A stretch of 64,000 nucleotides of DNA from Fibrobacterota bacterium (GTDB taxonomy: Bacteria; Fibrobacterota; Fibrobacteria; UBA11236; JADFYW01): assembly GCA_042567505.1 (NCBI GenBank), contig JBHPJW010000002.1, positions 17,686 to 81,685 of the forward strand, written 5' to 3'. Below the pieces are notes generated by a model. The model saw only the letters and a program-made list of their open reading frames with translations, was not told the DNA's origin and did not search any database. Of the stretch, positions 11,923 to 51,429 are shown in pieces (position 1 is the first letter of the stretch; the number at the start of each line of letters is the position of its first letter). The position numbers and the translations under genes were made by a program.

Positions 11923-11930
11923 AGCGAAGA

Positions 11931-35795: not shown

Positions 35796-36546
35796 TTTTT
35801 CCTCCTATTTTTTCCATCATAAAAAAGATACCTTCCTTTGCCGGAGAGTTCAATTTCCGAAGGGACTCGCTGTTGAAAATCGCCTCCTCAACGGCTTCAT
35901 CTTCCGGCACATCAAATAAATATTCCATCTGTGTTTCCTCAGCCAATTTCTTTATGCTTTCCCTTCGACCCTCCTTGAGCATGTTAGTGACCAGGTATTT
36001 TTTTCCCACCGGATTTTTCAGCTTCCTAGTTATCTGCTCGATGTTCTTAGCGGTATTCAGGGAAATGGGGTTGTTGTTCACCACCACTACCAAGATGTCA
36101 ATGTTCGAGGTCGTCCGGCGGCTGATGTGCTCAAGCCCGGCCTCATTATCGATGACCACCCATTTATAGGATGGCGTGAGATCCGCGTGGAACTTCCTTA
36201 TCAGGTTGTTGAGCGCGCAATAACACCCCGAACCCTCTCCCCTGCCCATGGTGATGAGATCAAAGCCTTCGGCCTCCTCCACTATTCCGTGCAGGCCGGC
36301 CTCCATGTAGTTTGCCTTGGTCATGCCGGGGGGAAAGTCCTTCATCTCTTCCAGGACCTCGTTGCGCAGGTCCCCGATGGACTGCCCTGTGGTGATGCCA
36401 AGCAGGGTGCCCAGGTTCGAGTCCGGGTCGGCGTCAATGGCCAGCACCGGCCCCATGTTTTTGGTGATGAGGTAATCGACGATCAACGCGGCAATGGTAG
36501 TCTTGCCTGTGCCGCCTTTGCCTGCTACGGCTAGTGTTTTGGCCAA
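35773..36546 (-). CDS. cooC: CooC/AcsF nickel-insertion ATPase
   Basis: GKGGTGKTT, DADPDSNL, GSGCYC and DNEAGLEHISR motifs. Confidence 0.92.
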   Translation of the reverse strand: MAKTLAVAGKGGTGKTTIAALIVDYLITKNMGPVLAIDADPDSNLGTLLGITTGQSIGDLRNEVLEEMKDFPPGMTKANYMEAGLHGIVEEAEGFDLITMGRGEGSGCYCALNNLIRKFHADLTPSYKWVVIDNEAGLEHISRRTTSNIDILVVVVNNNPISLNTAKNIEQITRKLKNPVGKKYLVTNMLKEGRRESIKKLAEETQMEYLFDVPEDEAVEEAIFNSESLRKLNSPAKEGIFFMMEKIGGKNGNTQGK

Positions 36547-37093: not shown

Positions 37094-37117
37094 TACTCCA
37101 ACACTCCAGTACTCCAA
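37081..37117. repeat. Right arm of the 9-bp-unit inverted repeat
   Basis: CCCAATACTCCATTACTCCAACACTCCAGTACTCCAA; begins a few bp after the acsV stop codon on the coding strand. Confidence 0.92.
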
Positions 37118-39013: not shown

Positions 39014-40345
39014 TTATTTTTTCCAATTTTCATTCAAAAACGCGGGTATCTTGGATGCCAGTTCAGGCCCGATAATCACTTCTTTCCAGTCTGAAGTGTC
39101 CTCGATTTCCGCCCTGAACACCGGCAGATAGCCCGGAATTATCAGTTTGCGGTGTTTTACCTTATCCGCCACGCCCTGCTCTTGTATGGTCTTCACCACC
39201 TTTTCCACGGAAATTTTGTCCCCCGCGTATGCATTAAGCACTCCCAATCCTTCGGTGTCCACCACGCAGATATAGGCGGGCACCTTGCTCCGTTCCACTT
39301 CCCCTTCCACGCTGAAATAGGTGAGGGAAAAGTTGGTGGTGAAAAGAACTGGCGAATCCTCATTGGGCTGCCCCACTTCGTACAGTTTGGTTTCAACAGT
39401 GTTGGGCTTTTGAGGATCGGTGTAGACATTCTGGACCGTGGTCATGATGGGAAGCAGCTGGCAGGGCTCCACGCCGTTGATAACCACGATACCCGCGTAC
39501 TTAGCCGCGAAGGTGCTGGCTAAGACAGTTTCCACTTCGGGTGAGTCCGCTTCGATATCAACCATGGCGGGAAATCCCAGCTCCCGGAAGTTTTTCTTCA
39601 AGGCCGCTCTTCGGGCAATGGTTATGTTTCTCAGGGTGTCGCCCGCGTTTAGAGAACCAAAGGACAGAACCAGGTCCGTCACGCCCTTGTCCTTGGCCTT
39701 CTTGGCATTGTCAGCCATTTCTTCCAGGTTCGCTCCGCCGATGGCCAGCGGTGCCTTTACGGCAACTGCTACTTCAGCCAGAGCGTCCACGCTGGAAGCG
39801 TCGGCTTTATAAATAAGCGGATTCTGGTCCTTCACGGCCTCCACCGCGGCCTTTAAGGCGTCCGCGGAGCCCATCAGGATCAGGGGAACACTGCTTTTTT
39901 CCGCGGCCAGCTTGGCCCGGCCTGCCGGGTCGCCGCCGTCAACTTCCACAGCGCATAACTCGACTTTGAGTTCTTCGCCAACTCTTATGAATTTGGCATT
40001 ATTGATCTTTTCAATCTTGGCGGCAGCTTCATCATCGGAAAGCGAAGCGGGAACCCGTACCGCAATACCTGTGCCGTGATGAAACTTTTCCTCGTGCCGG
40101 AACATCACTGTTTCCTGACCGAACACAAATTGTTTTCCCTCCGGCCCAATCTTCACCAGCTTCATGGGAGGCGCGGAAGCGTCTGACAATGCTGACTGAG
40201 CGTCATCGGAAATCTCCGGACAGTCGCTTAAAGCTTTCTGCTTGGCCGCGACCTGCATGGCAAAGGCCATACATGTGGGAAAACCGCATTCTTTGCAGTT
40301 AGTTTTGGGTAAACTCTTGTAGATTTGCATTCCTGTTAGTGCCAT
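39014..40345 (-). CDS. acsC: Corrinoid Fe-S protein large (gamma) subunit
   Basis: LPKTNCKECGFPTCMAFA 4Fe-4S motif; YTDPQKP, TTNFSLTY and G.GVL.AYA motifs. Confidence 0.97.
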   Translation of the reverse strand: MALTGMQIYKSLPKTNCKECGFPTCMAFAMQVAAKQKALSDCPEISDDAQSALSDASAPPMKLVKIGPEGKQFVFGQETVMFRHEEKFHHGTGIAVRVPASLSDDEAAAKIEKINNAKFIRVGEELKVELCAVEVDGGDPAGRAKLAAEKSSVPLILMGSADALKAAVEAVKDQNPLIYKADASSVDALAEVAVAVKAPLAIGGANLEEMADNAKKAKDKGVTDLVLSFGSLNAGDTLRNITIARRAALKKNFRELGFPAMVDIEADSPEVETVLASTFAAKYAGIVVINGVEPCQLLPIMTTVQNVYTDPQKPNTVETKLYEVGQPNEDSPVLFTTNFSLTYFSVEGEVERSKVPAYICVVDTEGLGVLNAYAGDKISVEKVVKTIQEQGVADKVKHRKLIIPGYLPVFRAEIEDTSDWKEVIIGPELASKIPAFLNENWKK

Positions 40346-40698: not shown

Positions 40699-42918
40699 TT
40701 AAAATAACGGCTCCATCGCCATCACAGGATGTTCCACCTTCTGCAAGTGCTCCATCAGCTTTTCCGGATCTTCCGCGTCTTCTTCGGTGGCTATCTTGTC
40801 AAAGAGGTCCGGCATGCCGGCTTTTTCCAGCTGAGCTTTTAGCCTGTCGCCCACTTCCTCTTTGAGCTGCTTGGGCATCCAGACGATTCTCTGCCATCCG
40901 CCTTCGGCCGATACGAACTTGGGGCTTGAAATATACAGCTTGCCAATCCCGGTAAATCCCGGCATCTGGGCCCCGCCGCCAATTTGGCCTGCCAGGGTGG
41001 AGAATTTCATGCCGATGGGGGTCATGCCGGCAAAGTCCCGGTCTACCACCATGATTCCGGATACTTCGGGAACAACCGCGGCAATGCACTCAAAACAGCC
41101 GCAGGAGGTCATGGGATCTTCCATGATGGAGTAGGCGTTGAACTTCTGCAGGGCGCCGTTGGACTTTACATCGATGTAGTCATTGATGTTCTGCCATGAG
41201 CCCTTTTCCTTGTCCAGTTCCGTGCCCTTTTTCACCGGCTCATTGGGCCCGTGTTCGTCTATCTGAAAGGAGGCCTTGCAATCCAGCCAGGTATAGGCGC
41301 CGCAGAGTCCTAGACGCTGGGGAGTGACAATACAGACATGGTTGGGAGCATATGACTGGCACAGGGTGCATGAGTAAAAATCTTCAACGTCCTCGTCGGT
41401 CATACCGCCGATTTTGTCGTCCCTATCCGAATAAATCGCCCTTGCATTCTCAAGCATTTCCTTGGTCTTGTCCGGGTCAGTGAAAATCTTCACCTGCACG
41501 CGGTCCACAATGGAGGAAAAATCGCCTTTTATCTTGGCCAGCAGTATTTCCCCGAAGTCCTTGATCTTAAAGCCCTTTTCCGCGGCTTCTTTACTGATGC
41601 GCACCCAGATGATATTGCGCTGGCCCATATGGAAAATGCCGTTGGCGCAGGAAATGTATTCATGAATACGCCTCTCCAGCACAGACTCAAAGTCTTCCTG
41701 GAATTCGCGCCCCGCCACCTCTACCAGGATGCCGAAGGGATAGGCCTCTCCCTGTTTCATCTTGTCTATCTCATCACCTATCACTTCTATATTGCCGTCT
41801 TCAATATCATCCATGCCCTTCATGCGCAGCATCTCAAAGGCGTCGGTGTACTTGCCGCCGAACTGCACATGCATGTCTTCTTTCCTGACCCGTTCGCCCT
41901 CAAAACCGGCGCCGTAGGCAACGGGGATGGGGACTTTTTCCACCTTGATGGTCAGCCCGCGCACCTCGATTGCCCTGCTCACCAGGTCTTCGTACTTCAC
42001 TCCTGAAACAACGTGTTCATAAGTGCAGATGCCGGTGGGCAATATCTGGGGAATGTCGGTGTCCGCTATCACGGGGAAACCGTAGTTTATGGCACCCGCG
42101 GCAGTGGCGTATTTCTCGTCGGTGATTATCTGTTCCTTGGTCTCGGCGTTGTCATCGCTGCCCAGCGCCAGCACAAAGGCGAACACGCGCTCCTTGTTGT
42201 ACATCAGGATTTCCTTGGCGGCCTTGAAGCTGCCCGGCTCCACTCCGCCGAAGCTCATGGCGGAACGGGCCGCAAAGTTCAGGGCGTAAATGGCCTGGGT
42301 GATTTCCTTGCCGTAGGGCACCAGGTAGGTGTCCCAGTTCATCTCAAGGCCCTCTGCGGCGGCCTGCTCGGCCACGCATTTGCCGTTGGAGTTGCCTGCC
42401 ATGAACACCAGGATGCTCTTTTCTTGCAGGTCGCGCAGCAGGTCAACCGCTTGCTGGTTGGTCTCGGTGGCGCCTACGATGGCGGCAAAACCCGGCATCC
42501 TGCCGTCCACCAGCTTGATGCCCTGCAGCCGCAGGATGTCGTCTCCGGTAAATCCCAGCCAGATGCCTTCGGCAGTGCCCGGGCCCATCACGTATTTGAG
42601 CGATTCAATTATTTCTTCCGCTATCAGGGTGGCGACGCCGGAATTGAGCGTATCACCCAGGTAGGGAAGCCACAGGCCTTCCGAGGGTATGGGGCCCAGC
42701 AGCTTCTTGGCTTCCTGAAGGGACTCTTCCAAATCACCCAAAGTAGTGACCTTCTGTCCCAGGAACAGGAGCATGATGGGCAGAAAATAGGCGGTGTTGG
42801 GATACTCCACCTTGCATTCCTTGCCTTTGGCTTTAATGGCGGCGGCCAGGTCTTTTTCGGCTCTTGCCACCATGGCATGGGCTCCTCTTATGGCTGCGGT
42901 CGCTATAATCTTTGACAT
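40699..42918 (-). CDS. acsB: Acetyl-CoA synthase (bacterial-type, with N-terminal domain)
   Basis: A-cluster ligands FYSCTLCQS, HVC, RLGLCGA and MTSCGCFEC; PNTAYFLP N-terminus. Confidence 0.98.
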   Translation of the reverse strand: MSKIIATAAIRGAHAMVARAEKDLAAAIKAKGKECKVEYPNTAYFLPIMLLFLGQKVTTLGDLEESLQEAKKLLGPIPSEGLWLPYLGDTLNSGVATLIAEEIIESLKYVMGPGTAEGIWLGFTGDDILRLQGIKLVDGRMPGFAAIVGATETNQQAVDLLRDLQEKSILVFMAGNSNGKCVAEQAAAEGLEMNWDTYLVPYGKEITQAIYALNFAARSAMSFGGVEPGSFKAAKEILMYNKERVFAFVLALGSDDNAETKEQIITDEKYATAAGAINYGFPVIADTDIPQILPTGICTYEHVVSGVKYEDLVSRAIEVRGLTIKVEKVPIPVAYGAGFEGERVRKEDMHVQFGGKYTDAFEMLRMKGMDDIEDGNIEVIGDEIDKMKQGEAYPFGILVEVAGREFQEDFESVLERRIHEYISCANGIFHMGQRNIIWVRISKEAAEKGFKIKDFGEILLAKIKGDFSSIVDRVQVKIFTDPDKTKEMLENARAIYSDRDDKIGGMTDEDVEDFYSCTLCQSYAPNHVCIVTPQRLGLCGAYTWLDCKASFQIDEHGPNEPVKKGTELDKEKGSWQNINDYIDVKSNGALQKFNAYSIMEDPMTSCGCFECIAAVVPEVSGIMVVDRDFAGMTPIGMKFSTLAGQIGGGAQMPGFTGIGKLYISSPKFVSAEGGWQRIVWMPKQLKEEVGDRLKAQLEKAGMPDLFDKIATEEDAEDPEKLMEHLQKVEHPVMAMEPLF

Positions 42919-42973
42919 AGTTGATACTCCTATTTCAATTTTAATGATCCATTGTTTAAATAAAACCTTAGTA

Positions 42974-43110
42974 TGTCATTCCGGCGAATGCCTAATACTG
43001 TCATTCTGACGAAAGTCAGAATCTTTCCATGGTAAAATTTACTCTGGAAAGATGCCGGGTCAGTGCCCGGCATGACAAACTTGAGCTTTTCGGTCAAGTC
43101 CGGAATGACA
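42974..43110. repeat. Mosaic of four REP-like units (BIME-like)
   Basis: TGTCATTCCGGCGAATGCC, TGTCATTCTGACGAAAGTCAGAATCT, AGATGCCGGGTCAGTGCCCGGCATGACA and TCGGTCAAGTCCGGAATGACA. Confidence 0.75.
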
Positions 43111-43131
43111 TTGCTTATCATCTTAAACATC

Positions 43132-43905
43132 TTAATACACCAGTTTAGAAACTCTTCTCCTGCACTCCGGACACTTCTCAAAAATGTCTTCACGCAGGTT
43201 CAGCTTAACCTTCTTCTTAATAGTCTTTAAATGAACTACCGGAGCAAAGGATTTTCCACACTCCGAGCAGGCCTTCATCTCGTGCCAGGTGTCCCAGTTT
43301 TCCATGAACAGGTTTTTCCCATCCTGACTCACTTTAATAGCTCCGGTTGGGCATACATTGGCGCAGGCGTTGCAAGCGATACAGATCTCCTTGGTGACCT
43401 GATACGGCGACACGAGTTTTTTATTGATACCTCTGAATGCTATGCTGATTCCGCCTGTGCACATGACATCGTGACAGGCGCGCACACAAAGCCCGCAAAG
43501 GATACAGTTTGATTCCCCCTTGTCCTTTGTTTCGAATCTTTCTTCCGCTCCGTACTCTTTCGCCATTTCATTTAAAAGGGGAGATTCCGGAGCGCGGGAA
43601 AGCAGCAATTCCAATATTACTTTTCGTTCCTTGCGGACTTTGGGAGTATTCGTCTGAACCACAAGCCCGTCTTCAACCGGATACACACAGGAGGCGTCGA
43701 TCCAGTTATAGGTTTTTCCCCGTTTGGTGACGCTCATCTCCACGATGCAAATACGGCAGGAAGCATACATGGGCAGCGATTCGTGGTAGCACAGTGTCGG
43801 AATAAAAACTCCGAGCTGCTTGGCGGCCTCAATGACCAGAGTGCCTTTGGGAACCTGAGCTTTACGTCCATCTATCTCTATATTCAGCAATTTTTCCTCA
43901 GTCAT
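43132..43905 (-). CDS. NuoG/HydA-like Fe-S subunit (2Fe-2S plus 2x4Fe-4S; no catalytic domain)
   Basis: PTLC...ASCRIC...SC; CILCGLCVRAC; CIACNACANVC; C-terminal CxxC...CxxC; no H-cluster or Mo-binding domain. Confidence 0.88.
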   Translation of the reverse strand: MTEEKLLNIEIDGRKAQVPKGTLVIEAAKQLGVFIPTLCYHESLPMYASCRICIVEMSVTKRGKTYNWIDASCVYPVEDGLVVQTNTPKVRKERKVILELLLSRAPESPLLNEMAKEYGAEERFETKDKGESNCILCGLCVRACHDVMCTGGISIAFRGINKKLVSPYQVTKEICIACNACANVCPTGAIKVSQDGKNLFMENWDTWHEMKACSECGKSFAPVVHLKTIKKKVKLNLREDIFEKCPECRRRVSKLVY

Positions 43906-43909
43906 AGCT

Positions 43910-45802
43910 TCAGACCTTGTTCACAGAATCAAATTTACAGACATCGAAGCAAATCCCGCACTTGGTGCACTTGGCTTTATCCAGCACGGCAATCTCCTTT
44001 TTCTTCCAGCTGATCGCGTCAGCAGGGCACTTTTTATAACAGGCACCGCACATTGACTTTGCACAAGCCTCAGCGTCAATTTCAAATTCAAACAGGGCTT
44101 TGCATACGCCTGCCGGGCACTTCTTTTCCTTCACATGCGTCATATATTCATCACGGAAATACCGTATCGTACTAAGCACTGGGTTAGGGGCGGATTTCCC
44201 CAAAGCGCACAGGGAACAGTGTTTAATTACTTCAGAAAGTTCTTCCAGAAGCTCTACGTCGCCATCCTTGCCTTTCCCCTCTGAAATCCTGTCAACAATT
44301 TTATACAGCTGGTAGGTTCCCTCACGGCAAGGCGTACACTTTCCGCAGGATTCCTCCACCAAAAAAGAGAGAAAGTAGCGGGCCACATCCACCATACAGG
44401 TGTCTTCGTCCATCACGATGATGCCGCCTGAGCCCATCATCGAGCCGACTTTGGTGAGTTCATCGAAATCCACCGGCATGTCGATCTTATCAGCGGGTAT
44501 ACAGCCGCCGGAAGGCCCGCCTGTCTGCACGGCCTTGAATTTTTTGTCTCCCGGGATGCCGCCGCCCACATCGTAAATAATCTCTCTCAGGGACAGTCCC
44601 ATGGGAACTTCCACAAGCCCGTTGTTGTTTATTTTCCCCACCAGAGAAAATACCTTGGTGCCCTTGGAACCTTCTGTTCCAATGCTCGCATACTCTTTCG
44701 CGCCCATTTTAAAGATAATGGGAACATTCGACCAGGTCTCAACGTTATTAAGGGTGGTCGGTTTTTCCCGCAAACCGGCTTCTACCGTATGTATATGCTT
44801 TACCCTCGGCTCCCCTACTTTTCCTTCTATGGAAGCCATCAACGCGGTGGACTCTCCGCACACAAAGGCGCCTCCACCCCTGCTTATCTTTATATCAAAG
44901 GAAAAGTCCGTGCCGAAGATGTTCTTGCCTAATAAGCCGTGCTCACGTGCCACCGCAATGGTCTTCCGCAGGGTTTCCACGGCAAGCGGATATTCAGCGC
45001 GCACATATATATATCCCTCCGTGCTGCCTATCCCGTATGCGCCGATGGCCATTCCCTCGAGAACGCTGAACGGATCGCCTTCCAGCACCGTCCTGTCCAT
45101 ATAGGCCCCCGGGTCGCCTTCATCGGCGTTGCAAATGACATATTTCGGAGATCCCGAAGCCTTGCTGCATGACCTCCACTTCCTTCCCGTGGGAAACCCG
45201 CCTCCTCCGCGGCCCCGCAGGCCGGCTTCCGTAACCGTGTCAACGATATCATCCGGTTTTAATCCGGTGAGGACGTTATACAGGGACCGGTATCCTCCCC
45301 TGGCGATATATTCTGAAATGTCCAGCGGATCTACCAGGCCGCTGTTGCGCAGGGCAATCTTAAACTGCGGCTTGTAGAAAGGAACCTCCTTGTATTCCTT
45401 TATATCCGCGGCTTTTTTGTTATCAACGCCGTCCACCTTGAATCCGCTGTTATTCAGCTGCATGAGAGCATGTTTTCCCGGAGTTTTTCCATCAATCCAT
45501 TCGGGAATGAGCTTTTCCATTTTCTTAGGGGTCAGCTGACTGTAAATAACCGGGGCCAGGCCTGGAACCATTACATTAAGCATGGGCTCAAGCTGACACA
45601 GACCTATGCACCCCGTCCGAGCCAGCACAACGTCAGTTCCCTTGAGGGCCTTCTCCAGCTCGCTATAGAGTTTATCCGCGCCGGATGCGCGGCCGCAGGT
45701 ACCCATCTGAACAGCGATTTTCACTTTTCCAGGGAAAATCCTGGTCTTTCCCTTTTTGCCCAGGCTCTCCAGCTGTTTTAAATCTTTCACTAACGTGGCC
45801 AT
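43910..45802 (-). CDS. NuoF/HydB-like FMN/NADH-binding subunit
   Basis: GLRGRGGGGFPTG, NADEGDPGAYMDR, AFVCGE, ESCGKCTPCREG; N-terminal 2Fe-2S (GCIGLC) and C-terminal 2x4Fe-4S. Confidence 0.93.
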   Translation of the reverse strand: MATLVKDLKQLESLGKKGKTRIFPGKVKIAVQMGTCGRASGADKLYSELEKALKGTDVVLARTGCIGLCQLEPMLNVMVPGLAPVIYSQLTPKKMEKLIPEWIDGKTPGKHALMQLNNSGFKVDGVDNKKAADIKEYKEVPFYKPQFKIALRNSGLVDPLDISEYIARGGYRSLYNVLTGLKPDDIVDTVTEAGLRGRGGGGFPTGRKWRSCSKASGSPKYVICNADEGDPGAYMDRTVLEGDPFSVLEGMAIGAYGIGSTEGYIYVRAEYPLAVETLRKTIAVAREHGLLGKNIFGTDFSFDIKISRGGGAFVCGESTALMASIEGKVGEPRVKHIHTVEAGLREKPTTLNNVETWSNVPIIFKMGAKEYASIGTEGSKGTKVFSLVGKINNNGLVEVPMGLSLREIIYDVGGGIPGDKKFKAVQTGGPSGGCIPADKIDMPVDFDELTKVGSMMGSGGIIVMDEDTCMVDVARYFLSFLVEESCGKCTPCREGTYQLYKIVDRISEGKGKDGDVELLEELSEVIKHCSLCALGKSAPNPVLSTIRYFRDEYMTHVKEKKCPAGVCKALFEFEIDAEACAKSMCGACYKKCPADAISWKKKEIAVLDKAKCTKCGICFDVCKFDSVNKV

Positions 45803-45807
45803 AAACT

Positions 45808-46341
45808 TTAACTCTTATATTGCTTTAAGATTTTCTTGATTTTTTCCGGCTGGAGATTGCCGAAGGTCTTTCCGTTGATCATCAGGACAGGAGCCAAGCT
45901 GCAGCACCCCAGACATCTCACCGTCTCCACTGAAAAGTGCCTGTCTTCGGTTGTTTCCCCGTCTTTAATGCTGAGTTGGTTATAAAGCTCATCCATAAGC
46001 CGGCCGGCGCCCTTGATATGACAGGCGGTGCCGGTGCAGACCTGAATATTATACTTTCCTTTGGGAATCAGCGAGAAAGCGTTATAAAAAGTGGCTACCG
46101 AAAACACCCTGCTTAAAGGAATCTCCAGATGGGAGGCCGTGGACCGCATGCAGTGTTCCGGAAGATAATGTAATTCCTCCTGGACCTCCTGCAGAATGGG
46201 CAGCAGAGATTCGGTATCTATGTCATACCGGTTTATAATTTTCTCAACCGAAGCTTGTTCTTCCTTTATCTCTTCCGGAGACAGCTCTGCTTCCGGAGGG
46301 GAAGCCTCTGCTACCGTGGATACCGTGTCTTTTTCAGCCAT
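45808..46341 (-). CDS. NuoE/HydC-like 2Fe-2S subunit
   Basis: VATFYNAFS, VCTGTACH and VRCLGCCSLAP motifs. Confidence 0.93.
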   Translation of the reverse strand: MAEKDTVSTVAEASPPEAELSPEEIKEEQASVEKIINRYDIDTESLLPILQEVQEELHYLPEHCMRSTASHLEIPLSRVFSVATFYNAFSLIPKGKYNIQVCTGTACHIKGAGRLMDELYNQLSIKDGETTEDRHFSVETVRCLGCCSLAPVLMINGKTFGNLQPEKIKKILKQYKS

Positions 46342-46851
46342 CTACGCTTCGCCCTTCTGAATCTGGACCATGTATTTCTTGCGCTTGAGGGCCGCAGCCT
46401 CATCCGGGGCCGCGTATTTAATGGCGCCGGTGGGACAGCCTTCCACGCAGGCCGGATTTTTACCTTCGGCCAGCCTTTCGTGACAGAGGTCGCACTTGAT
46501 CATGACCCGCTCATTTTTGCCTTTGCGCATCACCCCGAACGGGCAGATGAGGATACACTCATGGCACCCGATACATTTATCGTTATCCACAATCACCGGG
46601 TCATCCACGGATAAACGGGAGATGGCTTTGGTCGGGCACACCGCCATGCAGGGCGCGTCCTCACAGTGCCGGCAGTGCAGCGGCATGGTCATTTCTCCGA
46701 ACTGCTGCAGAATAACCCGGTTCACCGGACTTGGGGACTCCAGCATGGCTTCTTCCAGATTTTTACTCTGGGAGTGGGCAACCGCGCAATGCAGTTCGCA
46801 ACTATGACAGGACATGCATTTTTCAACATCAACTACGATTATTTTTTTCAT
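46342..46851 (-). CDS. cooF: CooF/HydN-like 4x[4Fe-4S] ferredoxin
   Basis: CMSCHSCELHC, CRHCEDAPC..VCPT, CIGCHEC..ICPFG and KCDLC...ACVEGCPT. Confidence 0.9.
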   Translation of the reverse strand: MKKIIVVDVEKCMSCHSCELHCAVAHSQSKNLEEAMLESPSPVNRVILQQFGEMTMPLHCRHCEDAPCMAVCPTKAISRLSVDDPVIVDNDKCIGCHECILICPFGVMRKGKNERVMIKCDLCHERLAEGKNPACVEGCPTGAIKYAAPDEAAALKRKKYMVQIQKGEA

Positions 46852-46862
46852 TGATGGTCTCC

Positions 46863-48788
46863 TTATGCCTGGTAGGGATATGGCTGTTCATACATGGGCG
46901 GCTTCAGTTTTAAAGCCGCGCGCTTTTTATCGATATGGGCTATCATTTTCTGTGCCGCTTTCACGGGGTCCAGCTCAAAGGCCCATTTGCCTCCCGTCTC
47001 CTGCTCAATCTCATCGGTGAGATAGTTGAACAGGTTTTTACTTCCCATCATGGGGAGGGGAGTGCCTATCATGGTATATACTCCGGAAGCGACAACGTAG
47101 AATCCGATGGCCACGGCTTTTTCACTCATCCATTCCGGGGCCGCGCCGGCCACGGGCAAATCAGAAATATCATCACCCAGCCCGCCTTCAGACACGATGT
47201 TGGTCAGGGTGGTGAGAATACGGCTGTTGTCAACACAGGACCCTAAATGCAGTACAGGAGGAATGCCCACCGCCCGGCAGATTTCCTGCAGGCCTTCACC
47301 GGCATATTTCTCCGCGGCCTCGGGCTGCAGTAAACCGTGCTTGGCGCAGGTGACAGCGTTGCATCCGGTAGTAACAACCAGGACATCGTTGGCGATAAGC
47401 TCCTTGACCATCTTCAAATGTCCCTCTTCATAGGGGACATTGGGATTGGAGCAGCCGATAACTCCGGCCGCTCCGCGCAGCCTGCCGGAAATCACCGCGT
47501 CGTTCAAGGGCCGGTACGTGGCCCGGTATTTGCCCCCCAGCATGGTAAAGACGTCTTCAGTGGTAAAGCCCGCAACCAGTTCTTCTTTATCATCGGGGAT
47601 TTGAACGCTTTTTCCCTTGCGGTTGGGGAAATTATCTATGGCTGTTTCCAGAATCTTAGTGGCAATCTCTACGGCCCTGTCTTCAGAAAACTCAATATGC
47701 TCAACACCGGGCATTTTAGCCTTGGGAGACGTGGTGATGAGCTTGGTGTGAAAACATTTACTCACGGTATCGAGAGCGGGCATCAGGCACTGCACATCCA
47801 CCACCATGAGGTCCAGGGCGCCGGTTACCATGGCCAATTCCTGCTGCAGAAAGGTGCCGGCCAGAGGGATGCCGTGCCGCATGAGGATTTCGTTGGCCGT
47901 ACAGCAGATGCCGCCCAGGACTATCCCCTTGGCGCCTTTTTCTTTGGCTTTTGCGATTAATTTTTCGTCCTGCGATACTATTGCTATGATGTCTGACAAG
48001 GTGGGTTCATGGCCATGTACGATAACATTTACATGGTCTTCTTTCATTATGCCGAGGTTGGCTTCGGACCGGATATTCTGTGGACGTTTGAAAATAATAT
48101 CAGATAATTCAGTCGCCACCATGGAACCGCCCCAGCCGTCCGCCAGCGCGGCACGCATCCCGTGGTGAATGATATTTTTATAATCACAATCCACCCCCAT
48201 ATTGGTGCGATGCATGGCCTCTACTACTTCCCTGTCTACAGCGCGGGGAAATATGCCCAGTTTATTCCATAAGTCCTTTCTGGCTTTAGGAGCTTTTTCG
48301 GCGATTCTCATTTGCCCCTCATAACGCCCAAATTCTTCAAGACCGGCAATGGCCACATCTTTGGCAATATCTTTTACCTCACGGCCTTCAGTCTTGATTT
48401 TGTATGCCTCTGCTACCTGCATTAATTTTGTCTCATCCTTTATCTTATAGTCACAATTTGGATCTGTAGCCGCCATGAGAAGAGTATGGGCGATGTCCCG
48501 GCCATGGTCCGAGTGAGCCGAAGTTCCTGCAGCTATCATTCGAATAATATTTCTGGCCGCAATAGTATCAGCGTTTGCGCCACACACACCCTCTTTAGGG
48601 CCCTCTCCAAAAGGATCAATCCTGCATGGACCCATGTTACATATTTTACAACACAAACCGGTGGATCCGAACCCGCATTGAGGCTGCATGCCTTCATACC
48701 GGTCCCATACAGTTTCTATATTTTCAGACTCTGCCCGCTTCACCATTTCCTTTGAAGCGTTATCAGCATATTTTAATTCTTTAGCCAT
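46863..48788 (-). CDS. cooS: Ni,Fe CO dehydrogenase catalytic subunit (CooS/AcsA)
   Basis: D/B cluster QCGFG..GLCCKICNMGPC; C-cluster ligand contexts HGHEP, CCTANE, DVQC, GCSN, GCNA and GSCVDN; WMSEKA lysine. Confidence 0.98.
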   Translation of the reverse strand: MAKELKYADNASKEMVKRAESENIETVWDRYEGMQPQCGFGSTGLCCKICNMGPCRIDPFGEGPKEGVCGANADTIAARNIIRMIAAGTSAHSDHGRDIAHTLLMAATDPNCDYKIKDETKLMQVAEAYKIKTEGREVKDIAKDVAIAGLEEFGRYEGQMRIAEKAPKARKDLWNKLGIFPRAVDREVVEAMHRTNMGVDCDYKNIIHHGMRAALADGWGGSMVATELSDIIFKRPQNIRSEANLGIMKEDHVNVIVHGHEPTLSDIIAIVSQDEKLIAKAKEKGAKGIVLGGICCTANEILMRHGIPLAGTFLQQELAMVTGALDLMVVDVQCLMPALDTVSKCFHTKLITTSPKAKMPGVEHIEFSEDRAVEIATKILETAIDNFPNRKGKSVQIPDDKEELVAGFTTEDVFTMLGGKYRATYRPLNDAVISGRLRGAAGVIGCSNPNVPYEEGHLKMVKELIANDVLVVTTGCNAVTCAKHGLLQPEAAEKYAGEGLQEICRAVGIPPVLHLGSCVDNSRILTTLTNIVSEGGLGDDISDLPVAGAAPEWMSEKAVAIGFYVVASGVYTMIGTPLPMMGSKNLFNYLTDEIEQETGGKWAFELDPVKAAQKMIAHIDKKRAALKLKPPMYEQPYPYQA

Positions 48789-49539
48789 GTGTCAGCTCCT
48801 GTTCTAGTTTATTCTTTACTTTATAAATCTCTTCTTTAGTTTCCCCATTAATGGAAAATCCACGATAATCGAGAAGCGTTTCATCATAGGGAACAGCGCT
48901 TAAAACCTCAGCGCCGGTCTCACTGATAATCCTTTCAAGATCTTCCGGTTTTCGTACTTTGTTGGCAATCACTGCTATCTGTTTTATGTTCAGGTCCCCG
49001 GCCAGTTTTTTTATCCGGTCAAAAGTCTGCAGGCTGCTGGTAGTGGCTTCAACCACAACCAGGAGCAGATCCACAAACTGGGCTGTGCCTCTGCCCAAGT
49101 GCTCAATGCCTGCCTCCATGTCAATAATAACTATTTCGTCCCTGGCCACCAGCAAGTGGCTGAGCAGCTGCTTAACCATCACGTTTTCAGGACAGACGCA
49201 ACCACCGCCGCCCCTGCGCACTGTACCCATAACCATGTGCTTGATTCCGTCCTTTTCCACAGAAAACCTGTCAGGGATATCATCAACCTTGGGATTCATG
49301 GTGAAATAAACGGTGGATTTTCCTGGTTCAGCTCCCACCCTTTCCTTTATCAGTTCCTTCATCTCCGCCAATGGAGTGATTTCCTGTTCCTCAGAAAAGC
49401 CCAAGGCATTGGCCAGGTTGGCGTCAGGATCGGCATCTATGGTAAAGACCTTCGCCCCCTCATCGCTGAAAGCGCGCGCCAGCATGGCCGCTATGGTGGT
49501 CTTGCCCACTCCTCCCTTACCTGAGATGGCTATTTTCAA
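48781..49539 (-). CDS. cooC: CooC nickel-insertion ATPase
   Basis: KIAISGKGGVGKTT, DADPDANL, GGGCVCPEN and DMEAGIEHLGRG. TTG at 49539 preferred over GTG at 49572, which lies inside a REP. Confidence 0.92.
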   Translation of the reverse strand: MKIAISGKGGVGKTTIAAMLARAFSDEGAKVFTIDADPDANLANALGFSEEQEITPLAEMKELIKERVGAEPGKSTVYFTMNPKVDDIPDRFSVEKDGIKHMVMGTVRRGGGGCVCPENVMVKQLLSHLLVARDEIVIIDMEAGIEHLGRGTAQFVDLLLVVVEATTSSLQTFDRIKKLAGDLNIKQIAVIANKVRKPEDLERIISETGAEVLSAVPYDETLLDYRGFSINGETKEEIYKVKNKLEQELTHG

Positions 49540-49567
49540 TGTCTCTCTTCCTTTTTCTTCTGCTTTT

Positions 49568-49631
49568 GTCACACTTCGACAAGCTCAGTGTGACGCTTCC
49601 CCGTCATCCTGAACCTGTCGAAGGATGACGG
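49568..49631. repeat. Pair of REP-like hairpins (CTTCGACAAGCTCAG family)
   Basis: GTCACACTTCGACAAGCTCAGTGTGAC and CCGTCATCCTGAACCTGTCGAAGGATGACGG, in opposite orientation. Confidence 0.75.
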
Positions 49632-49648: not shown

Positions 49649-50602
49649 TCAAACCTCCGGCCTCGGCAATAATCCAGCTTTTTCCGCAAATCCCATAACT
49701 GTCTTTTCCGCTTCTATAGCCATGAAATGAACACCGCGCACCCCCTCTATTTCCTTCATTTCCTGCACCTGCTCGATGGCGATCTGCTGTCCTTCCTCTT
49801 TGGGGTCTTCGGCCTTTTTCATCCTCTCTATCATATGGTCCGGAACCGTCATGCCGGCCACATTGTCCCGCATGTATTCAGCCATCCTGACTGATTTTAA
49901 AGGCGTCACACCGGCCAGGATAGCGGTCTTCTCATGCAGCCCCTTGTTGACTACTTCCTTCATCCACTTCTTAAAACGGTCCATATCATAAATGCACTGG
50001 GTCTGAATAAAATCAGCACCGGCATTGACTTTCTTGGCAAGTCTGGTGGGCCGATAATCAATGGGTCCCCCAAACGGATTGGCGGCAGCGCCTATAAAAA
50101 TTCTTGGTTCCACCACCGGGCCCTTTTTGCCCTGTTTAATTTCATCTCCGCAGGCGAACTGCTTTTCGTCGCGCATTTTTTTCAGCATGGCTATCAGCTG
50201 CATGGAATCCAGATCATAGACGTTTTTGGCGGTGGGATGGTTGCCGAAACACTGATGATCGCCGCTCAGGCAGAGGATATTGTGCACCCCGAGAGCATAT
50301 GCTCCCAGCACGTCCGCCTGAATGGCCAGCCGGTTGCGATCCCGGCAGGTTATCTGCATGACCGGTTCCAGACCGCATTCAATAGCAATCACACTGGCGG
50401 TCAACGAGGACATCCTGACGATGGCGGTCTGGTTGTCGGTGATATTCACCGCATCCACAGCGCCTTTTAAGAACTCAGCTTTTTTCTGGACATGCTCCTT
50501 GTCCGCACTCTTGGGAGGGCCCAACTCGCCGGTGAAGACAAATTCAACCTTGGCCAGGAGTTTCTCCAGCCTGCCTCCGGATTTTAACGCAGTCTCATGC
50601 AT
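49649..50602 (-). CDS. metF: Methylenetetrahydrofolate reductase catalytic subunit
   Basis: ELGPPKS, AVNITDNQ, QITCRDRN, LCLSGD and GADFIQTQ motifs. Confidence 0.96.
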   Translation of the reverse strand: MHETALKSGGRLEKLLAKVEFVFTGELGPPKSADKEHVQKKAEFLKGAVDAVNITDNQTAIVRMSSLTASVIAIECGLEPVMQITCRDRNRLAIQADVLGAYALGVHNILCLSGDHQCFGNHPTAKNVYDLDSMQLIAMLKKMRDEKQFACGDEIKQGKKGPVVEPRIFIGAAANPFGGPIDYRPTRLAKKVNAGADFIQTQCIYDMDRFKKWMKEVVNKGLHEKTAILAGVTPLKSVRMAEYMRDNVAGMTVPDHMIERMKKAEDPKEEGQQIAIEQVQEMKEIEGVRGVHFMAIEAEKTVMGFAEKAGLLPRPEV

Positions 50603-50754: not shown

Positions 50755-51429
50755 CTATAGCATTACGTCCTCTCTCTTAACCGTCCTCGGGCCGCCGTCA
50801 CGCGCAGTCGACCAGTCCTTTAAAGGTTGATTGGCTTCAAGTTCATCCAACCTCCCCAGCTTTTCCATCCGATCATATATCAGCTGCCAGGCGCAATCGA
50901 TGTTTTCCGTGTCCACCTCGCATTTGCCATTGGTAGAGCCCCCGCAGGGCCCGTTCATGATGCTCTTGGAACACCGGGCAATGGGACAGATGCCGCCGTA
51001 CTGCTCCAGAATGCACTGCCCGCATCCCGCGCAGCGCTCCGCCCACACACCCTGTTGCAGGTTCGTGCCAAAAAATTTGGTATCCAGGCCTGGATACACG
51101 ACCATTTCCGGAACAACTTCTATCCCGTATTGAACCCCCACTCCACATGCAGTTGAGATGACCGCGTCAACTTCGCCTATCTTTCTGACCGTTTCCTCAT
51201 CAAAAAATTCCCGATCGCACTGGCGGGTTATGGTATGTTCTTCAACCGTGATATCGTCGCCTTTTTCCCTGGCCGCCAGCTTTATCTGAGACGCTAAAAC
51301 ACCAACTTCCTTTTCTCCACCGGCCATGCAAACAGTTACGCAGGTCCCGCACCCGAGGATTAGCACCTTCTTATGCCTTTTGGCATAATCGTATACTTCA
51401 TCAAAAGGTTTTCTTTCTGCGACAATCAT
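50755..51429 (-). CDS. metV: MetV (methylenetetrahydrofolate reductase Zn/Fe-S subunit)
   Basis: MIVAERKP, GCGTCVTVC, ACGVG, CAGCGQC, CPIARCSKS..NGPCGG and CAW motifs; GGAGG RBS. Confidence 0.93.
   Translation of the reverse strand: MIVAERKPFDEVYDYAKRHKKVLILGCGTCVTVCMAGGEKEVGVLASQIKLAAREKGDDITVEEHTITRQCDREFFDEETVRKIGEVDAVISTACGVGVQYGIEVVPEMVVYPGLDTKFFGTNLQQGVWAERCAGCGQCILEQYGGICPIARCSKSIMNGPCGGSTNGKCEVDTENIDCAWQLIYDRMEKLGRLDELEANQPLKDWSTARDGGPRTVKREDVML

What the first reader, a model, noticed from the sequence alone, without database searches (positions are those of the whole stretch)
43132..48788. CODH wired to a catalytic-domain-less HydABC/Bfu-type module inserted between cooS and acsB
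The order is cooS-cooF-nuoE-nuoF-nuoG-like with 0-11 bp gaps. The F subunit has the extra N-terminal 2Fe-2S and C-terminal 2x4Fe-4S domains and the GDPGAxM motif I associate with electron-bifurcating HydB. The G-like subunit has no H-cluster, no Mo domain and no His-ligated 4Fe-4S motif. The only adjacent catalytic partners are CODH (via CooF) or MetVF. This predicts an NADH/ferredoxin-bifurcating CODH(/ACS) complex, or an electron supply for MetVF, which lacks hdr/mvhD/rnfC2 partners here.
Basis: partly seen in the sequence, partly recalled or inferred. Interest (0 to 1): 0.7.

Follow-up and report, generated by a model that had tools for sequence, protein, structure and literature searches.

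The report
NADH/ferredoxin module wired into CODH/ACS
The acetyl-CoA synthase operon carries, between the CO dehydrogenase and the synthase genes, a complete three-subunit flavin/iron-sulfur module of the electron-bifurcating Bfu (HydABC-like) family; this class was predicted in the literature but never purified, and here it probably lets CO2 reduction in the Wood-Ljungdahl pathway run on NADH plus ferredoxin together.

Summary
On the minus strand the genes run metV-metF-cooC-cooS-cooF-nuoE-like-nuoF-like-short nuoG-like-acsB-acsC-RACo-(IVP)-cooC-acsD-acsE, with 0-11 bp gaps from cooS to the G-like gene.

The trio is a Type 2 BfuABC module. BfuB has the FMN domain and all B1-B4 ligands. BfuA is a full-length homologue of WorA from the solved bifurcating aldehyde oxidoreductase WorABCSL (9MQX; fold TM 0.84/0.88). 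CooF is a full-length homologue of its partner WorS.

The same cooF-bfuCBA unit sits in CODH/ACS operons of at least seven phyla, in several gene orders. CooS lineage co-varies with its presence. A same-family genome has the same operon without bfuCBA. One metagenome contig shows a clean in-frame deletion that fuses cooF to the last 64 codons of bfuB.

The MetVF alternative is disfavoured. The genome's formate dehydrogenase and [NiFe] hydrogenase have their own flavoprotein modules.

"Codh-Bfu/CodhABCSF" was already predicted (Schut 2022; PNAS 2025), but only for stand-alone CODHs in Firmicutes. I found no description of the ACS-embedded, multi-phylum form. No activity has been shown. I rate it a new variant of a known, predicted kind, of moderate to high interest.

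The parts
50755..51429 (-). metV (MTHFR small Fe-S subunit, 224 aa), first gene of the cluster
   Evidence: PF12225 DUF5981, E 4.5e-36. 75% identical to the G004 homologue at the same position.
49649..50602 (-). metF (methylene-THF reductase, 317 aa)
   Evidence: PF02219, E 2.8e-43. 86% identical to G004.
48781..49572 (-). cooC (Ni-insertion ATPase for CODH, 263 aa)
   Evidence: PF01656 CbiA/ParA-type. Only 60% identical to G004.
46863..48788 (-). cooS/acsA, Ni-CODH catalytic subunit (641 aa); the only cooS found in the 66%-complete genome
   Evidence: TIGR01702, 667 bits. Best PDB matches are ACS-associated CODHs 6ytt_B and 9fzy_B (E about 2e-205), and 6t7j_B (1.7e-205), whose entry is named only 'carbon monoxide dehydrogenase'. 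Single genome hit. Falls in a 100%-supported CooS clade of 9 rows: 6 Bfu-linked, 3 on truncated contigs.
46342..46851 (-). cooF, 4 x [4Fe-4S] polyferredoxin (169 aa), a WorS/HycB3 homologue; proposed wire from the CODH D/B clusters to BfuA
   Evidence: PF13247. 16 Cys in four motifs. Full-length match to WorS 9mqx_E (residues 1-161 against 1-146 of 152, E 1.8e-25) and to HycB3 7qv7_A.
45808..46341 (-). bfuC (NuoE/HydC-like, 177 aa), [2Fe-2S] cluster C1
   Evidence: PF01257, E 1e-52. Cys102, 107, 143 and 147 give the CX4C...CX3C pattern.
43910..45802 (-). bfuB (HydB-like, 630 aa): N-terminal thioredoxin-like domain, FMN/NAD(H) site, B1 [4Fe-4S], B2/Zn site, C-terminal B3/B4 2 x [4Fe-4S]
   Evidence: PDB E-values from 1e-214 to 1e-172 against the B subunits of solved Bfu-type complexes: 9bov, 7q4v, 7t2r, 8oh5, 9mqx, 8a6t, 9n5u, 7p5h. 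Ligand columns conserved.
43132..43905 (-). bfuA (257 aa), WorA-type 'Type 2' adaptor: [2Fe-2S] A1, [4Fe-4S] A2 and A4, no A3, no A5 domain, C-terminal Cys4 finger plus terminal helix
   Evidence: phmmer to 9mqx_A full length, E 1.6e-45. AF2 model pLDDT 92. Foldseek top hit 9mqx_A, TM 0.84/0.88, rmsd 2.3 A. Invariant Cys columns in 38 homologues.
42919..43131 (-). 213-nt intergenic spacer between bfuA and acsB that folds into a very stable branched structure closed by 12-nt inverted arms
   Evidence: MFE -69.2 kcal/mol, z = -6.7 against shuffles. Arms ATGTCATTCCGG at 42973-42984 (+) and 43100-43111 (-). The equivalent gap is 11-105 bp in L103, L104, L105 and L015. Function unknown.
40699..42918 (-). 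acsB, acetyl-CoA synthase (739 aa) with the N-terminal CODH-contacting domain
   Evidence: PF18537, PF03598 and PF19436. 80% identical to G004.
39014..40345 (-). acsC (CoFeSP large subunit)
   Evidence: PF03599 and PF04060.
37122..39008 (-). RACo/acsV, reductive activator of CoFeSP
   Evidence: PF14574, PF17651, PF17650 and PF00111.
35773..36546 (-). second cooC/acsF-type ATPase
   Evidence: PF01656.
34839..35795 (-). acsD (CoFeSP small subunit)
   Evidence: PF03599.
34040..34822 (-). acsE (methyl-THF:CoFeSP methyltransferase)
   Evidence: PF00809.

Best explanation
cooS-cooF-bfuC-bfuB-bfuA encode one redox machine attached to the CODH of a bifunctional CODH/ACS. It is built like the solved WorABCSL aldehyde oxidoreductase, with CooS in place of the tungsten subunit.

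Proposed electron path: CODH C-cluster, then B/D clusters, then the four [4Fe-4S] clusters of CooF (the WorS homologue), then BfuA clusters A4, A2 and A1, then BfuB cluster B1 and FMN. At the FMN/B1/C1 site, electrons are shared with NAD(H) bound at FMN and with ferredoxin bound at the C-terminal B3/B4 domain of BfuB. BfuA's C-terminal Cys4 finger and terminal helix would dock on CooF, as WorA docks on WorS.

In the reductive (acetogenic or autotrophic) direction, NADH and reduced ferredoxin together supply mid-potential electrons for CO2 reduction to CO. This works only because ACS consumes the channelled CO and keeps it very low. In the oxidative direction, CO derived from acetyl-CoA or from outside reduces NAD+ and ferredoxin together.

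Shown: gene content, cofactor ligands, fold homology, and recurrent synteny with its variants. Inferred: the physical complex, the electron path, bifurcation, and the direction of operation.
For: 1. Homology to bifurcating enzymes. BfuB matches the B subunits of eight solved Bfu-type complexes at E 1e-214 to 1e-172. It keeps B1 (C486/489/492/532), the B2/Zn site (C469, S507, H556, C562, C567) and B3/B4 (C580/585/588/592; C612/615/618/622). Schut 2022 reports that non-bifurcating homologues lack B2-B5.

2. BfuA is a WorA-type adaptor over its whole length (phmmer E 1.6e-45; Foldseek TM 0.84/0.88, all other hits cover only the N-terminal part). CooF is a full-length WorS homologue. In 9MQX, WorA's Zn finger and C-terminal helix recruit WorS, and the A4 cluster takes electrons from WorS cluster S4 (PMC12318220).

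3. Recurrence. 17 of the 80 best genome loci that encode this short BfuA hold CooS and/or AcsB, in Spirochaetota, Chloroflexota, Firestonebacteria, Bacillota, Acidobacteriota, Myxococcota and Planctomycetota. The window's exact gene order recurs in L015, L021, L103, L104, L105 and L113. Other orders (cooF-CBA-cooS-acsB; acsB-cooF-CBA-acsC) keep cooF with bfuCBA.

4. CooS co-varies with Bfu. On a 98-row CooS tree the Bfu+ label needs 6 changes against 17.7 in shuffles (0 of 500 as low). The window lies in a 100%-supported clade with no Bfu-minus member. A 72-row clade has none with Bfu.

5. Cassette behaviour. Against same-family G004, MetF, AcsB, AcsC, AcsD and AcsE are 80-86% identical, but CooC is 60%, CooS 56% and CooF 44%, and bfuCBA is absent.

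6. Natural deletion. L013 equals L103 minus about 2.3 kb (bfuC plus bfuB codons 1-562). This fuses CooF in frame to the B3/B4 domain, with bfuA kept. G004's 218-aa CooF has the same CooF plus BfuB-C-terminal architecture. This ties CooF, the ferredoxin-side domain and BfuA into one wire at the CODH.

7. This CooS is the only one found in the genome, and its best PDB matches include the ACS-associated CODHs 6ytt_B and 9fzy_B.

8. Other possible partners are provided for. The FDH on C170 carries its own NuoE fusion and NuoF-like subunit. The [NiFe] hydrogenase is hdrA-mvhD-mvhG-mvhA.
Against: The N-terminal domain of BfuB has only three Cys (C36, C65, C69), where 66 of 81 homologues have a fourth. 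Cluster B5 may therefore be bound differently or be absent, although solved 9bov_B shows the same pattern.

The first B3/B4 motif has unusual CX4CX2CX3C spacing.

Thermodynamically, CO2/CO (-520 mV) lies below the NADH/Fd average of about -390 mV (values from Schut 2022 Table 1). Reductive operation therefore needs CO to be held about 10^4-fold below standard activity.

CODH/ACS-linked BfuB sequences are polyphyletic, with at least 6 origins. The association is convergent rather than one old lineage.

A 213-bp structured gap separates bfuA from acsB, so co-transcription with acsB is unproven.

The genome is 66% complete, so absences are weak evidence.
Confidence: 0.6

Rival explanations
1. The module is a non-bifurcating NAD(H)-linked diaphorase for the CODH. 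CO is oxidised with NAD+ alone (or CO2 reduced with NADH alone), and the B3/B4 and N-terminal domains act only as wires or vestiges.
For: Same synteny evidence as the main reading. The N-terminal domain lacks the fourth Cys found in most BfuB. NuoEF-type modules that look HydBC-like can be non-bifurcating; an mBio 2026 title listed reports such a hydrogenase complex.
Against: All features that Schut 2022 reports as missing from non-bifurcating homologues are present: the B2 site His/Cys and B3/B4. NADH alone (-320/-280 mV) cannot reduce CO2 to CO. The natural deletion variants keep precisely the ferredoxin-side B3/B4 domain, which argues that domain is functionally important at the CODH.
Confidence: 0.15
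2. BfuABC supplies or accepts electrons for the adjacent MetVF methylene-THF reductase, which lacks Hdr/MvhD/RnfC2 partners in this cluster.
For: metV-metF lie directly upstream in the same orientation. Bfu modules next to metVF exist elsewhere: L034, L046 and L056. In L056, bfuB ends 3 bp before metV.
Against: G004 has metVF in the same position with no bfuCBA. L015, L021, L104, L105 and the cooF-CBA-cooS-type loci have Bfu in the acs operon but no metVF within 7-10 kb. The MetVF-abutting module in L056 uses a HoxU-like BfuA that has the His-ligated cluster (PF10588), unlike the window's WorA-type BfuA. bfuCBA is separated from metF by cooC, cooS and cooF. The genome holds a second metVF preceded by an MvhD-like gene, and separate hdrA-mvhD genes.
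Confidence: 0.07
3. The module serves a catalytic subunit encoded elsewhere (hydrogenase, formate dehydrogenase, WOR or POR), and its position in the acs operon reflects only co-regulation.
For: The genome is 66% complete. Type 2 BfuA proteins pair with many partners in other genomes: 61 of the 81 BfuB rows in the tree come from loci with no CODH, ACS or MetVF gene in view. A [NiFe] hydrogenase lies on the same contig, and its large subunit is most like that of NiFe-HydABCSL (7t2r_D, E 1e-123).
Against: The hydrogenase operon is hdrA-mvhD-mvhG-mvhA when contig ends C43 and C112 are joined, so it has its own HdrA flavoprotein. The solved NiFe-Bfu feeds electrons through the A3 cluster, which this BfuA lacks. 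The FDH carries its own NuoE/NuoF parts. No [FeFe] hydrogenase was found. CooS lineage co-varies with Bfu.
Confidence: 0.05
4. BfuABC works without a third substrate as a stand-alone NADH:ferredoxin balancing enzyme, co-expressed with the Wood-Ljungdahl genes. CooF and BfuA are then independent ferredoxin-like carriers.
For: The variant with BfuA but no BfuBC (L013) shows that BfuA can persist without the flavoprotein. Rnf is also present in the genome, so the Fd and NADH pools clearly need balancing.
Against: Uphill NADH-to-ferredoxin transfer needs a driving third reaction. Every characterised Bfu enzyme has one (Schut 2022). The cooF-bfuCBA adjacency is conserved next to cooS in all the rearranged gene orders.
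Confidence: 0.08

Closest known systems
WorABCSL, the electron-bifurcating tungsten aldehyde oxidoreductase of Acetomicrobium mobile (PDB 9MQX; PMC12318220)
   Same: Same five-part logic: a catalytic subunit, a four-cluster polyferredoxin (WorS ~ CooF), a short BfuA with A1/A2/A4, no A3, a Cys4 finger and a C-terminal helix (WorA ~ window BfuA, TM 0.84/0.88), and a BfuB/BfuC core.
   Different: The catalytic subunit is a Ni-CODH, not a tungstopterin enzyme. The CODH is in turn the partner of acetyl-CoA synthase. The stoichiometry (WorABC(SL)3, a nanowire) is unknown here.
Codh-Bfu / 'CodhABCSF', a class predicted by bioinformatics only (Schut et al. 2022, PMC9304861; discussion in PMC12318220)
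   Same: BfuABC together with CooS and CooF in one gene cluster. Type 2 BfuA. CO/CO2 proposed as the third substrate.
   Different: It was described from 4 sequences, 'only in Firmicutes', with the CODH genes sandwiched between bfuB and bfuA, and was interpreted as CO oxidation or detoxification. Here the order is cooS-cooF-C-B-A. The unit is inside the acs operon, and the CODH groups with ACS-associated CODHs 6ytt_B and 9fzy_B. The arrangement occurs in at least 7 other phyla.
Canonical bacterial CODH/ACS (Moorella thermoacetica AcsAB, 1MJG/1OAO; Clostridium autoethanogenum 6YTT)
   Same: acsA/cooS, acsB, acsC, acsD, acsE, RACo and cooC are all present. CooS is most similar to ACS-bound CODHs.
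   Different: From my own knowledge, the canonical enzymes exchange electrons directly with free ferredoxin and have no CooF or flavoprotein in the operon. Among the contigs from the metagenome scan, read, 37 loci have cooS abutting acsB with neither.
HydABC / NiFe-HydABCSL / FdhF-HylABC / StnABC(NfnABC), the characterised Bfu-family enzymes
   Same: BfuB and BfuC are close homologues (E down to 1e-214), with FMN and the B1-B4 and C1 ligands.
   Different: Those BfuA subunits carry a catalytic or A5 domain, and most carry the His-ligated A3 cluster. This BfuA has neither.
CooS-CooF with an FAD/NAD(P) oxidoreductase (the FNOR context of monofunctional CODHs; Inoue 2019 genomic-context groups)
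   Same: A CODH linked through CooF to a pyridine-nucleotide-binding flavoprotein.
   Different: FNOR is an unrelated single flavoprotein with no ferredoxin-side module, and it is not found in acs operons. This comparison rests on my own knowledge and was not tested here.

Membership tests
Bfu (BfuABC/HydABC-type) family, as defined by Schut 2022 | BfuB domain set: NuoF FMN domain, SLBB, NADH_4Fe-4S, plus a C-terminal 2 x [4Fe-4S] ferredoxin domain | tested here: met
   PF01512, PF10531, PF10589 and Fer4 families at residues 575-625. E 1e-214 to 1e-172 against solved BfuB chains.
Bfu (BfuABC/HydABC-type) family, as defined by Schut 2022 | B1 [4Fe-4S] ligands and the FMN/NAD(H) glycine-rich motifs | tested here: met
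   C486, C489, C492 and C532. GRGGGGFPTG at 197-206 and EGDPG at 228-232, invariant or nearly so in 81 homologues.
Bfu (BfuABC/HydABC-type) family, as defined by Schut 2022 | B2 (or Zn) site: a conserved His plus Cys residues that non-bifurcating homologues lack | tested here: met
   C469, H556, C562 and C567 are conserved in 78-81 of 81 rows. Position 507 is Ser (Thr in 38, Cys in 24, Ser in 10 of 81), matching the Cys/Thr variability described in the paper.
Bfu (BfuABC/HydABC-type) family, as defined by Schut 2022 | B3 and B4 [4Fe-4S] clusters (ferredoxin side) | tested here: met
   C580/585/588/592 and C612/615/618/622. The first motif has CX4CX2CX3C spacing because of a 2-residue insertion.
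Bfu (BfuABC/HydABC-type) family, as defined by Schut 2022 | B5 [2Fe-2S] in the N-terminal thioredoxin-like domain | tested here: inconclusive
   The domain is present (PF01257 partial, E 2.7e-4), but only C36, C65 and C69 are available. Gln32 stands where 66 of 81 homologues have Cys. The same three-Cys pattern occurs in solved 9bov_B and in L021 and L039.
Bfu (BfuABC/HydABC-type) family, as defined by Schut 2022 | BfuC with the C1 [2Fe-2S] cluster | tested here: met
   PF01257, E 1e-52. C102, C107, C143 and C147.
Bfu (BfuABC/HydABC-type) family, as defined by Schut 2022 | Tightly coupled three-substrate (NAD, ferredoxin, third substrate) bifurcating activity | not testable with these tools
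   Needs an enzyme assay.
Type 2 / WorA-type BfuA | A1 [2Fe-2S], A2 and A4 [4Fe-4S] present; A3 (His-ligated) and the A5/H-cluster domain absent | tested here: met
   C39/50/53/73, C134/137/140/144 and C175/178/181/185 are invariant. No PF10588. Residues 100-112 (LLLSRAPESPLLN) align with the cluster-free stretch of WorA.
Type 2 / WorA-type BfuA | C-terminal Cys4 (zinc) finger followed by a terminal helix that docks the polyferredoxin partner | tested here: met
   C213, C216 and C248 are invariant and C245 is nearly so; R249/R250 are nearly invariant. The AF2 model has a helix at 246-256. Full-length superposition on 9mqx_A, TM 0.84/0.88. Actual docking was not tested.
Type 2 / WorA-type BfuA | An adjacent WorS/CooF-type four-cluster polyferredoxin | tested here: met
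   CooF matches 9mqx_E over its full length, E 1.8e-25. cooF ends 0 bp before bfuC.
Codh-Bfu / CodhABCSF (predicted class) | cooS and cooF in the same gene cluster as bfuABC | tested here: met
Codh-Bfu / CodhABCSF (predicted class) | As described: stand-alone CODH, Firmicutes only, BfuB in clade 49 | tested here: not met
   Here the unit is inside an acs operon. Homologous arrangements occur in 7 or more other phyla. CODH/ACS-linked BfuB are polyphyletic. Placement in Schut's numbered clades was not tested.
Bacterial CODH/ACS | AcsB with the N-terminal CODH-binding domain, plus AcsC/D/E, RACo and CooC, and a CODH of the ACS-associated type | tested here: met
   PF18537, PF03598 and PF19436, together with the CdhD, Pterin_bind and RACo families. 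Best PDB matches of CooS include 6ytt_B and 9fzy_B, both chains of CODH/ACS complexes.

The most novel reading that the evidence does not exclude
In this organism, and in uncultured members of at least seven other phyla, the bifunctional CODH/ACS itself is an electron-confurcating or bifurcating enzyme. Acetyl-CoA synthesis or cleavage would then be coupled to NAD(H) and ferredoxin together through a CooF nanowire plugged into BfuABC. That would halve the ferredoxin demand of the carbonyl branch. Lineages would switch between the NADH-coupled and ferredoxin-only forms by simple in-frame deletions that fuse CooF to the ferredoxin-binding domain of BfuB.
Probability: 0.45. Interest if true: 0.75.

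Novelty: new variant of a known kind. Interest (0 to 1): 0.55.

Why it matters
Energy budgets of the Wood-Ljungdahl pathway assume that CO2 reduction to CO at CODH/ACS costs two low-potential ferredoxin electrons. If a Bfu module lets NADH provide half of them, the ATP yield and the feasible substrates of many uncultured acetogens, autotrophs and acetate oxidisers change. The lineages concerned include Planctomycetota, Chloroflexota, Myxococcota, Spirochaetota, Acidobacteriota and this reportedly Fibrobacterota genome.

The finding also gives the still unpurified Codh-Bfu class a much larger, natural and physiologically central set of examples. The natural deletion variants point to which domains contact the CODH.

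For CO2-reduction biocatalysis, a CODH that accepts NADH-derived electrons would be of practical interest.

Tried and rejected
- Promoter and terminator scan of 33.5-52 kb: counts were no higher than in shuffles, so it says nothing about operon structure.
- Rfam scan of the cluster: only one sub-threshold chance hit.
- One ancient CODH-Bfu lineage: rejected. CODH/ACS-linked BfuB need at least 6 origins on the BfuB tree.
- The [NiFe] hydrogenase on the same contig as the real partner: rejected after joining contig ends C43 and C112, which gives hdrA-mvhD-mvhG-mvhA.
- The FDH as partner: rejected, because it carries its own NuoE fusion and NuoF-like subunit.
- Literature: 'Codh-Bfu' occurs in a single paper. 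The 2026 eLife CODH genomic-context paper does not mention NADH or bifurcation. Inoue 2019 notes only COG1034/1894/1905 in the WLP context group. The NPL-UPA2 paper notes nuoEF near the CODH/ACS genes. I found no description of an ACS-embedded Bfu, but most subscription journals are not in the library.
- The CooS tree has a sampling bias. Bfu+ loci came mainly from a BfuA search and Bfu- loci from a CooS search. G004's CooS sits on a long branch, so its exact placement is unsure.

Full report
**What is there**

On the minus strand of the window there is one tightly packed cluster:
- metV 50755-51429
- metF 49649-50602
- cooC 48781-49572
- cooS 46863-48788
- cooF 46342-46851
- a NuoE-like gene 45808-46341
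- a NuoF-like gene 43910-45802
- a short NuoG-like gene 43132-43905
- acsB 40699-42918
- acsC 39014-40345
- RACo 37122-39008
- a small 23S-IVP-family gene 36632-37117
- a second cooC 35773-36546
- acsD 34839-35795
- acsE 34040-34822

A 213-bp gap follows before acsB.

**What the trio is**

The F-like protein (630 aa) matches the B subunits of eight solved HydABC/Bfu-type complexes at E 1e-214 to 1e-172: 9bov, 7q4v, 7t2r, 8oh5, 9mqx, 8a6t, 9n5u and 7p5h. Complex I NuoF chains score about 1e-100 and cover only the central part.

It keeps these ligands:
- B1: C486/489/492/532.
- The B2/Zn site: C469, S507, H556, C562, C567. Schut et al. 2022 (PMC9304861) describe this site as conserved in bifurcating BfuB and absent from non-bifurcating homologues.
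- The two C-terminal [4Fe-4S] clusters B3/B4: C580/585/588/592 and C612/615/618/622.

One feature is uncertain. The N-terminal thioredoxin-like domain has only three Cys (C36, C65, C69), while 66 of 81 homologues have a fourth. The same three-Cys pattern is present in the solved chain 9bov_B and in two other CODH-linked homologues.

The E-like protein has the four C1 ligands.

The G-like protein (257 aa) has the [2Fe-2S] cluster A1 and two [4Fe-4S] motifs (A2, A4). It has no His-ligated cluster (A3) and no C-terminal catalytic or A5 domain. That combination is the definition of a 'Type 2' BfuA in Schut 2022.

Its best PDB match by far is the 247-aa WorA subunit of the bifurcating tungsten aldehyde oxidoreductase WorABCSL (9mqx_A). 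The match is full length, at E 1.6e-45. An AlphaFold model (pLDDT 92) superposes on WorA with TM 0.84/0.88 and rmsd 2.3 A. All other hits cover only the N-terminal two thirds.

The four C-terminal Cys (C213, C216, C245, C248) are invariant or nearly so in 38 homologues. They correspond to the zinc finger that, together with the terminal helix, recruits the polyferredoxin WorS in the 9MQX structure (PMC12318220). The model has a terminal helix at residues 246-256.

CooF of the window (16 Cys, four clusters) is in turn a full-length homologue of WorS (9mqx_E, E 1.8e-25) and of the nanowire subunit HycB3.

The anatomy is therefore that of WorABCSL, with CooS in the place of the tungsten subunit.

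**Is the link to the CODH real?**

Five lines of comparative evidence say yes.

First, the arrangement recurs widely. The short BfuA family is large (2782 proteins at E <= 1e-3). Of the 80 best loci in species-representative genomes, 17 contain CooS and/or AcsB. By record title they come from Spirochaetota, Chloroflexota, Firestonebacteria, Bacillota, Acidobacteriota, Myxococcota and Planctomycetota.
- The window's exact order, cooC-cooS-cooF-bfuC-bfuB-bfuA-acsB..., recurs in L015, L021, L103, L104, L105 and L113.
- Other lineages have cooF-bfuCBA-cooS-acsB, or acsB-cooF-bfuCBA-acsC.
- Wherever the sequence upstream of bfuC is available, a cooF homologue is there. In some Planctomycetota it is separated from bfuC by PAS and SpoIIE regulator genes.

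Second, CooS lineage co-varies with Bfu. On a 98-row CooS tree the 'Bfu-linked' label needs 6 changes, against 17.7 in shuffles (0 of 500 shuffles as low).
- The window's CooS lies in a 100%-supported clade of nine: six Bfu-linked and three on truncated contigs.
- A 72-row clade of the common acsD-cooS-acsB type has no Bfu-linked member.
- Caveat: the two label classes came from different searches.

Third, the unit behaves as a cassette. A genome of the same family (G004) has the same operon without bfuCBA. Its MetF, AcsB, AcsC, AcsD and AcsE are 80-86% identical to the window's, but CooC is 60%, CooS 56% and CooF 44%.

Fourth, there is a natural deletion. Contig L013 is about 90% identical in DNA to L103 on both sides, but lacks about 2.3 kb. 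The loss removes bfuC and bfuB codons 1-562 and fuses CooF in frame to the last 64 residues of BfuB (the B3/B4 domain). bfuA and acsB follow unchanged. G004's 218-aa CooF has the same CooF plus BfuB-C-terminal architecture. When the NADH/FMN part is lost, the ferredoxin-side domain is kept and tied covalently to CooF. This is what one expects if all these parts form one wire at the CODH.

Fifth, this is the CODH that partners ACS. It is the only cooS found in the (66% complete) genome. Its best PDB matches include the CODH subunits of the CODH/ACS complexes 6ytt_B and 9fzy_B, ahead of the monofunctional CODH-II chains. AcsB has its N-terminal CODH-contacting domain.

**Rivals**

MetVF supply is disfavoured for these reasons:
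- metVF is in the same place in Bfu-less G004.
- Most Bfu-bearing acs operons have no metVF nearby.
- Bfu modules that abut metVF do exist. In L056, bfuB stops 3 bp before metV. That module, however, has a HoxU-like BfuA with the His-ligated cluster, a different type.

A partner encoded elsewhere is unlikely for these reasons:
- The genome's formate dehydrogenase (contig C170) is a 1115-aa FdhA fused to a NuoE domain, followed by its own split NuoF-like subunit with 2 x [4Fe-4S].
- Its [NiFe] hydrogenase, although most similar to the NiFe-HydABCSL large subunit, reads hdrA-mvhD-mvhG-mvhA once the ends of contigs C43 and C112 are joined.
- No [FeFe] hydrogenase was found.

Simple non-bifurcating NADH coupling cannot be excluded without an assay.

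**How it probably works (inference)**

The proposed electron path is: C-cluster, then B/D clusters of CooS, then the four clusters of CooF, then BfuA A4, A2 and A1, then BfuB B1/FMN. Exchange with NAD(H) occurs at FMN, and with ferredoxin at B3/B4, as proposed for all Bfu enzymes.

Using the potentials tabulated by Schut 2022 (CO2/CO -520 mV; physiological NAD -280 mV and Fd -500 mV), NADH plus reduced ferredoxin deliver electrons at about -390 mV. CO2 reduction is then possible only if CO is held roughly 10^4-fold below standard activity. In a CODH/ACS, CO is channelled and consumed by the exergonic condensation at the A-cluster (my own knowledge, not tested here). That makes the ACS-embedded setting a more natural home for a Codh-Bfu than a free CO oxidiser. 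The enzyme would be reversible.

The genome also has FTHFS, Rnf, the Bfu-like FDH and Hdr-Mvh. That fits an organism using the pathway as an electron sink or for autotrophy, with both CO2-reducing steps driven by NADH plus ferredoxin.

**Comparison with what is known, and novelty**

Prior statements I found:
- Schut 2022 predicted 'Codh-Bfu' from four sequences, 'only in Firmicutes', with the CODH genes sandwiched between bfuB and bfuA. It was read as CO oxidation or detoxification.
- The 2025 WorABCSL paper proposed a 'CodhABCSF' nanowire complex for Sporomusa silvacetica and stated that it has not been purified.
- Inoue 2019 listed NuoEFG-type COGs among the genes of the WLP context group.
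- One MAG paper mentions nuoEF near the CODH/ACS genes.

The idea of a bifurcating CODH is therefore not new. A G-like subunit without the His-ligated cluster is a class feature, not an anomaly.

I could not find the following described:
- the module as an integral insert of the CODH/ACS operon
- its presence in that setting across many phyla and in several gene orders
- the co-variation with CooS lineage
- the deletion/fusion variants

I rate it a new variant of a known (predicted) kind.

**Limits**

- No activity, complex or expression data exist.
- The MAG is 66% complete.
- The phylum label Fibrobacterota comes from other agents' notes and was not checked here.
- Among 40 relatives, only two same-family genomes have acsB and none has this BfuA.

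Noticed in passing
window 42919-43131 (-): The 213-nt spacer between bfuA and acsB folds into a very stable branched structure (MFE -69.2 kcal/mol, z -6.7), closed by perfect 12-nt inverted arms ATGTCATTCCGG. One-mismatch copies of the arm also occur at 14367, 33869 and 46220. The same gap is 11-105 bp in related operons. It could be a small repeat-element insertion or an mRNA processing or stability element.
   Followed up: partly
L013 5635-6336 compared with L103 6072-8995: A natural in-frame deletion of about 2.3 kb removes bfuC and bfuB codons 1-562. It fuses CooF to the C-terminal 2 x [4Fe-4S] domain of BfuB (233-aa product), and bfuA is retained.
   Followed up: yes
L101 (G004:C110) 10682-11338: The same-family genome has the acs operon without bfuCBA. 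Its 218-aa CooF ends in a domain 52% identical to the window BfuB C-terminus (motif ...AITWKKKELAV...). This looks like a second CooF::BfuB-tail fusion.
   Followed up: partly
L096 (G000:C170) 7732-12985 (-): A second Bfu-like module in the same genome: a 1115-aa FdhA (2Fe-2S, 4Fe-4S, molybdopterin) fused at its C-terminus to a NuoE domain, then a 127-aa ORF matching the BfuB N-terminal domain, then a 499-aa NuoF-like protein with 2 x [4Fe-4S]. CooF-like, NrfD-like and cytochrome c3-domain genes lie downstream.
   Followed up: partly
L097 (G000:C68) 5553-14967 (+): A second metV-metF pair, preceded by an MvhD-like gene and an NrpR-type regulator. It is followed by two giant proteins (1116 aa with a Glu_synthase domain, 867 aa with a GXGXG domain). 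This is an unusual MTHFR context.
   Followed up: no
L107 (G000:C43) 1-2625 and L106 (G000:C112) 12832-14653: hdrA-mvhD-mvhG is cut at the start of contig C43, and the C-terminal part of mvhG plus mvhA-hypF-hypD-hypE lie at the end of C112. The two contig ends evidently join into one Hdr-Mvh hydrogenase operon about 32 kb beyond the window.
   Followed up: partly
L056 8849-13656 (+): A Dehalococcoidia MAG has bfuA (HoxU-like, with the His-ligated cluster)-bfuC-bfuB-metV-metF, with 3 bp between bfuB and metV. This is a candidate Bfu-linked methylene-THF reductase. L034 and L046 also have metVF near a Bfu module.
   Followed up: partly
L036 3854-5517 (also L061, L068, L087): In Planctomycetota-type CODH/ACS-Bfu clusters, a PAS-domain gene and a SpoIIE-type phosphatase gene sit between cooF and bfuC. 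This suggests post-translational or sensory regulation of the module.
   Followed up: no
window 36632-37117 (-): A 23S-rRNA-IVP-family four-helix-bundle gene lies inside the acs operon between RACo and cooC. It is absent at that place in G004, L015, L104 and L105. Another agent has already reported it.
   Followed up: no
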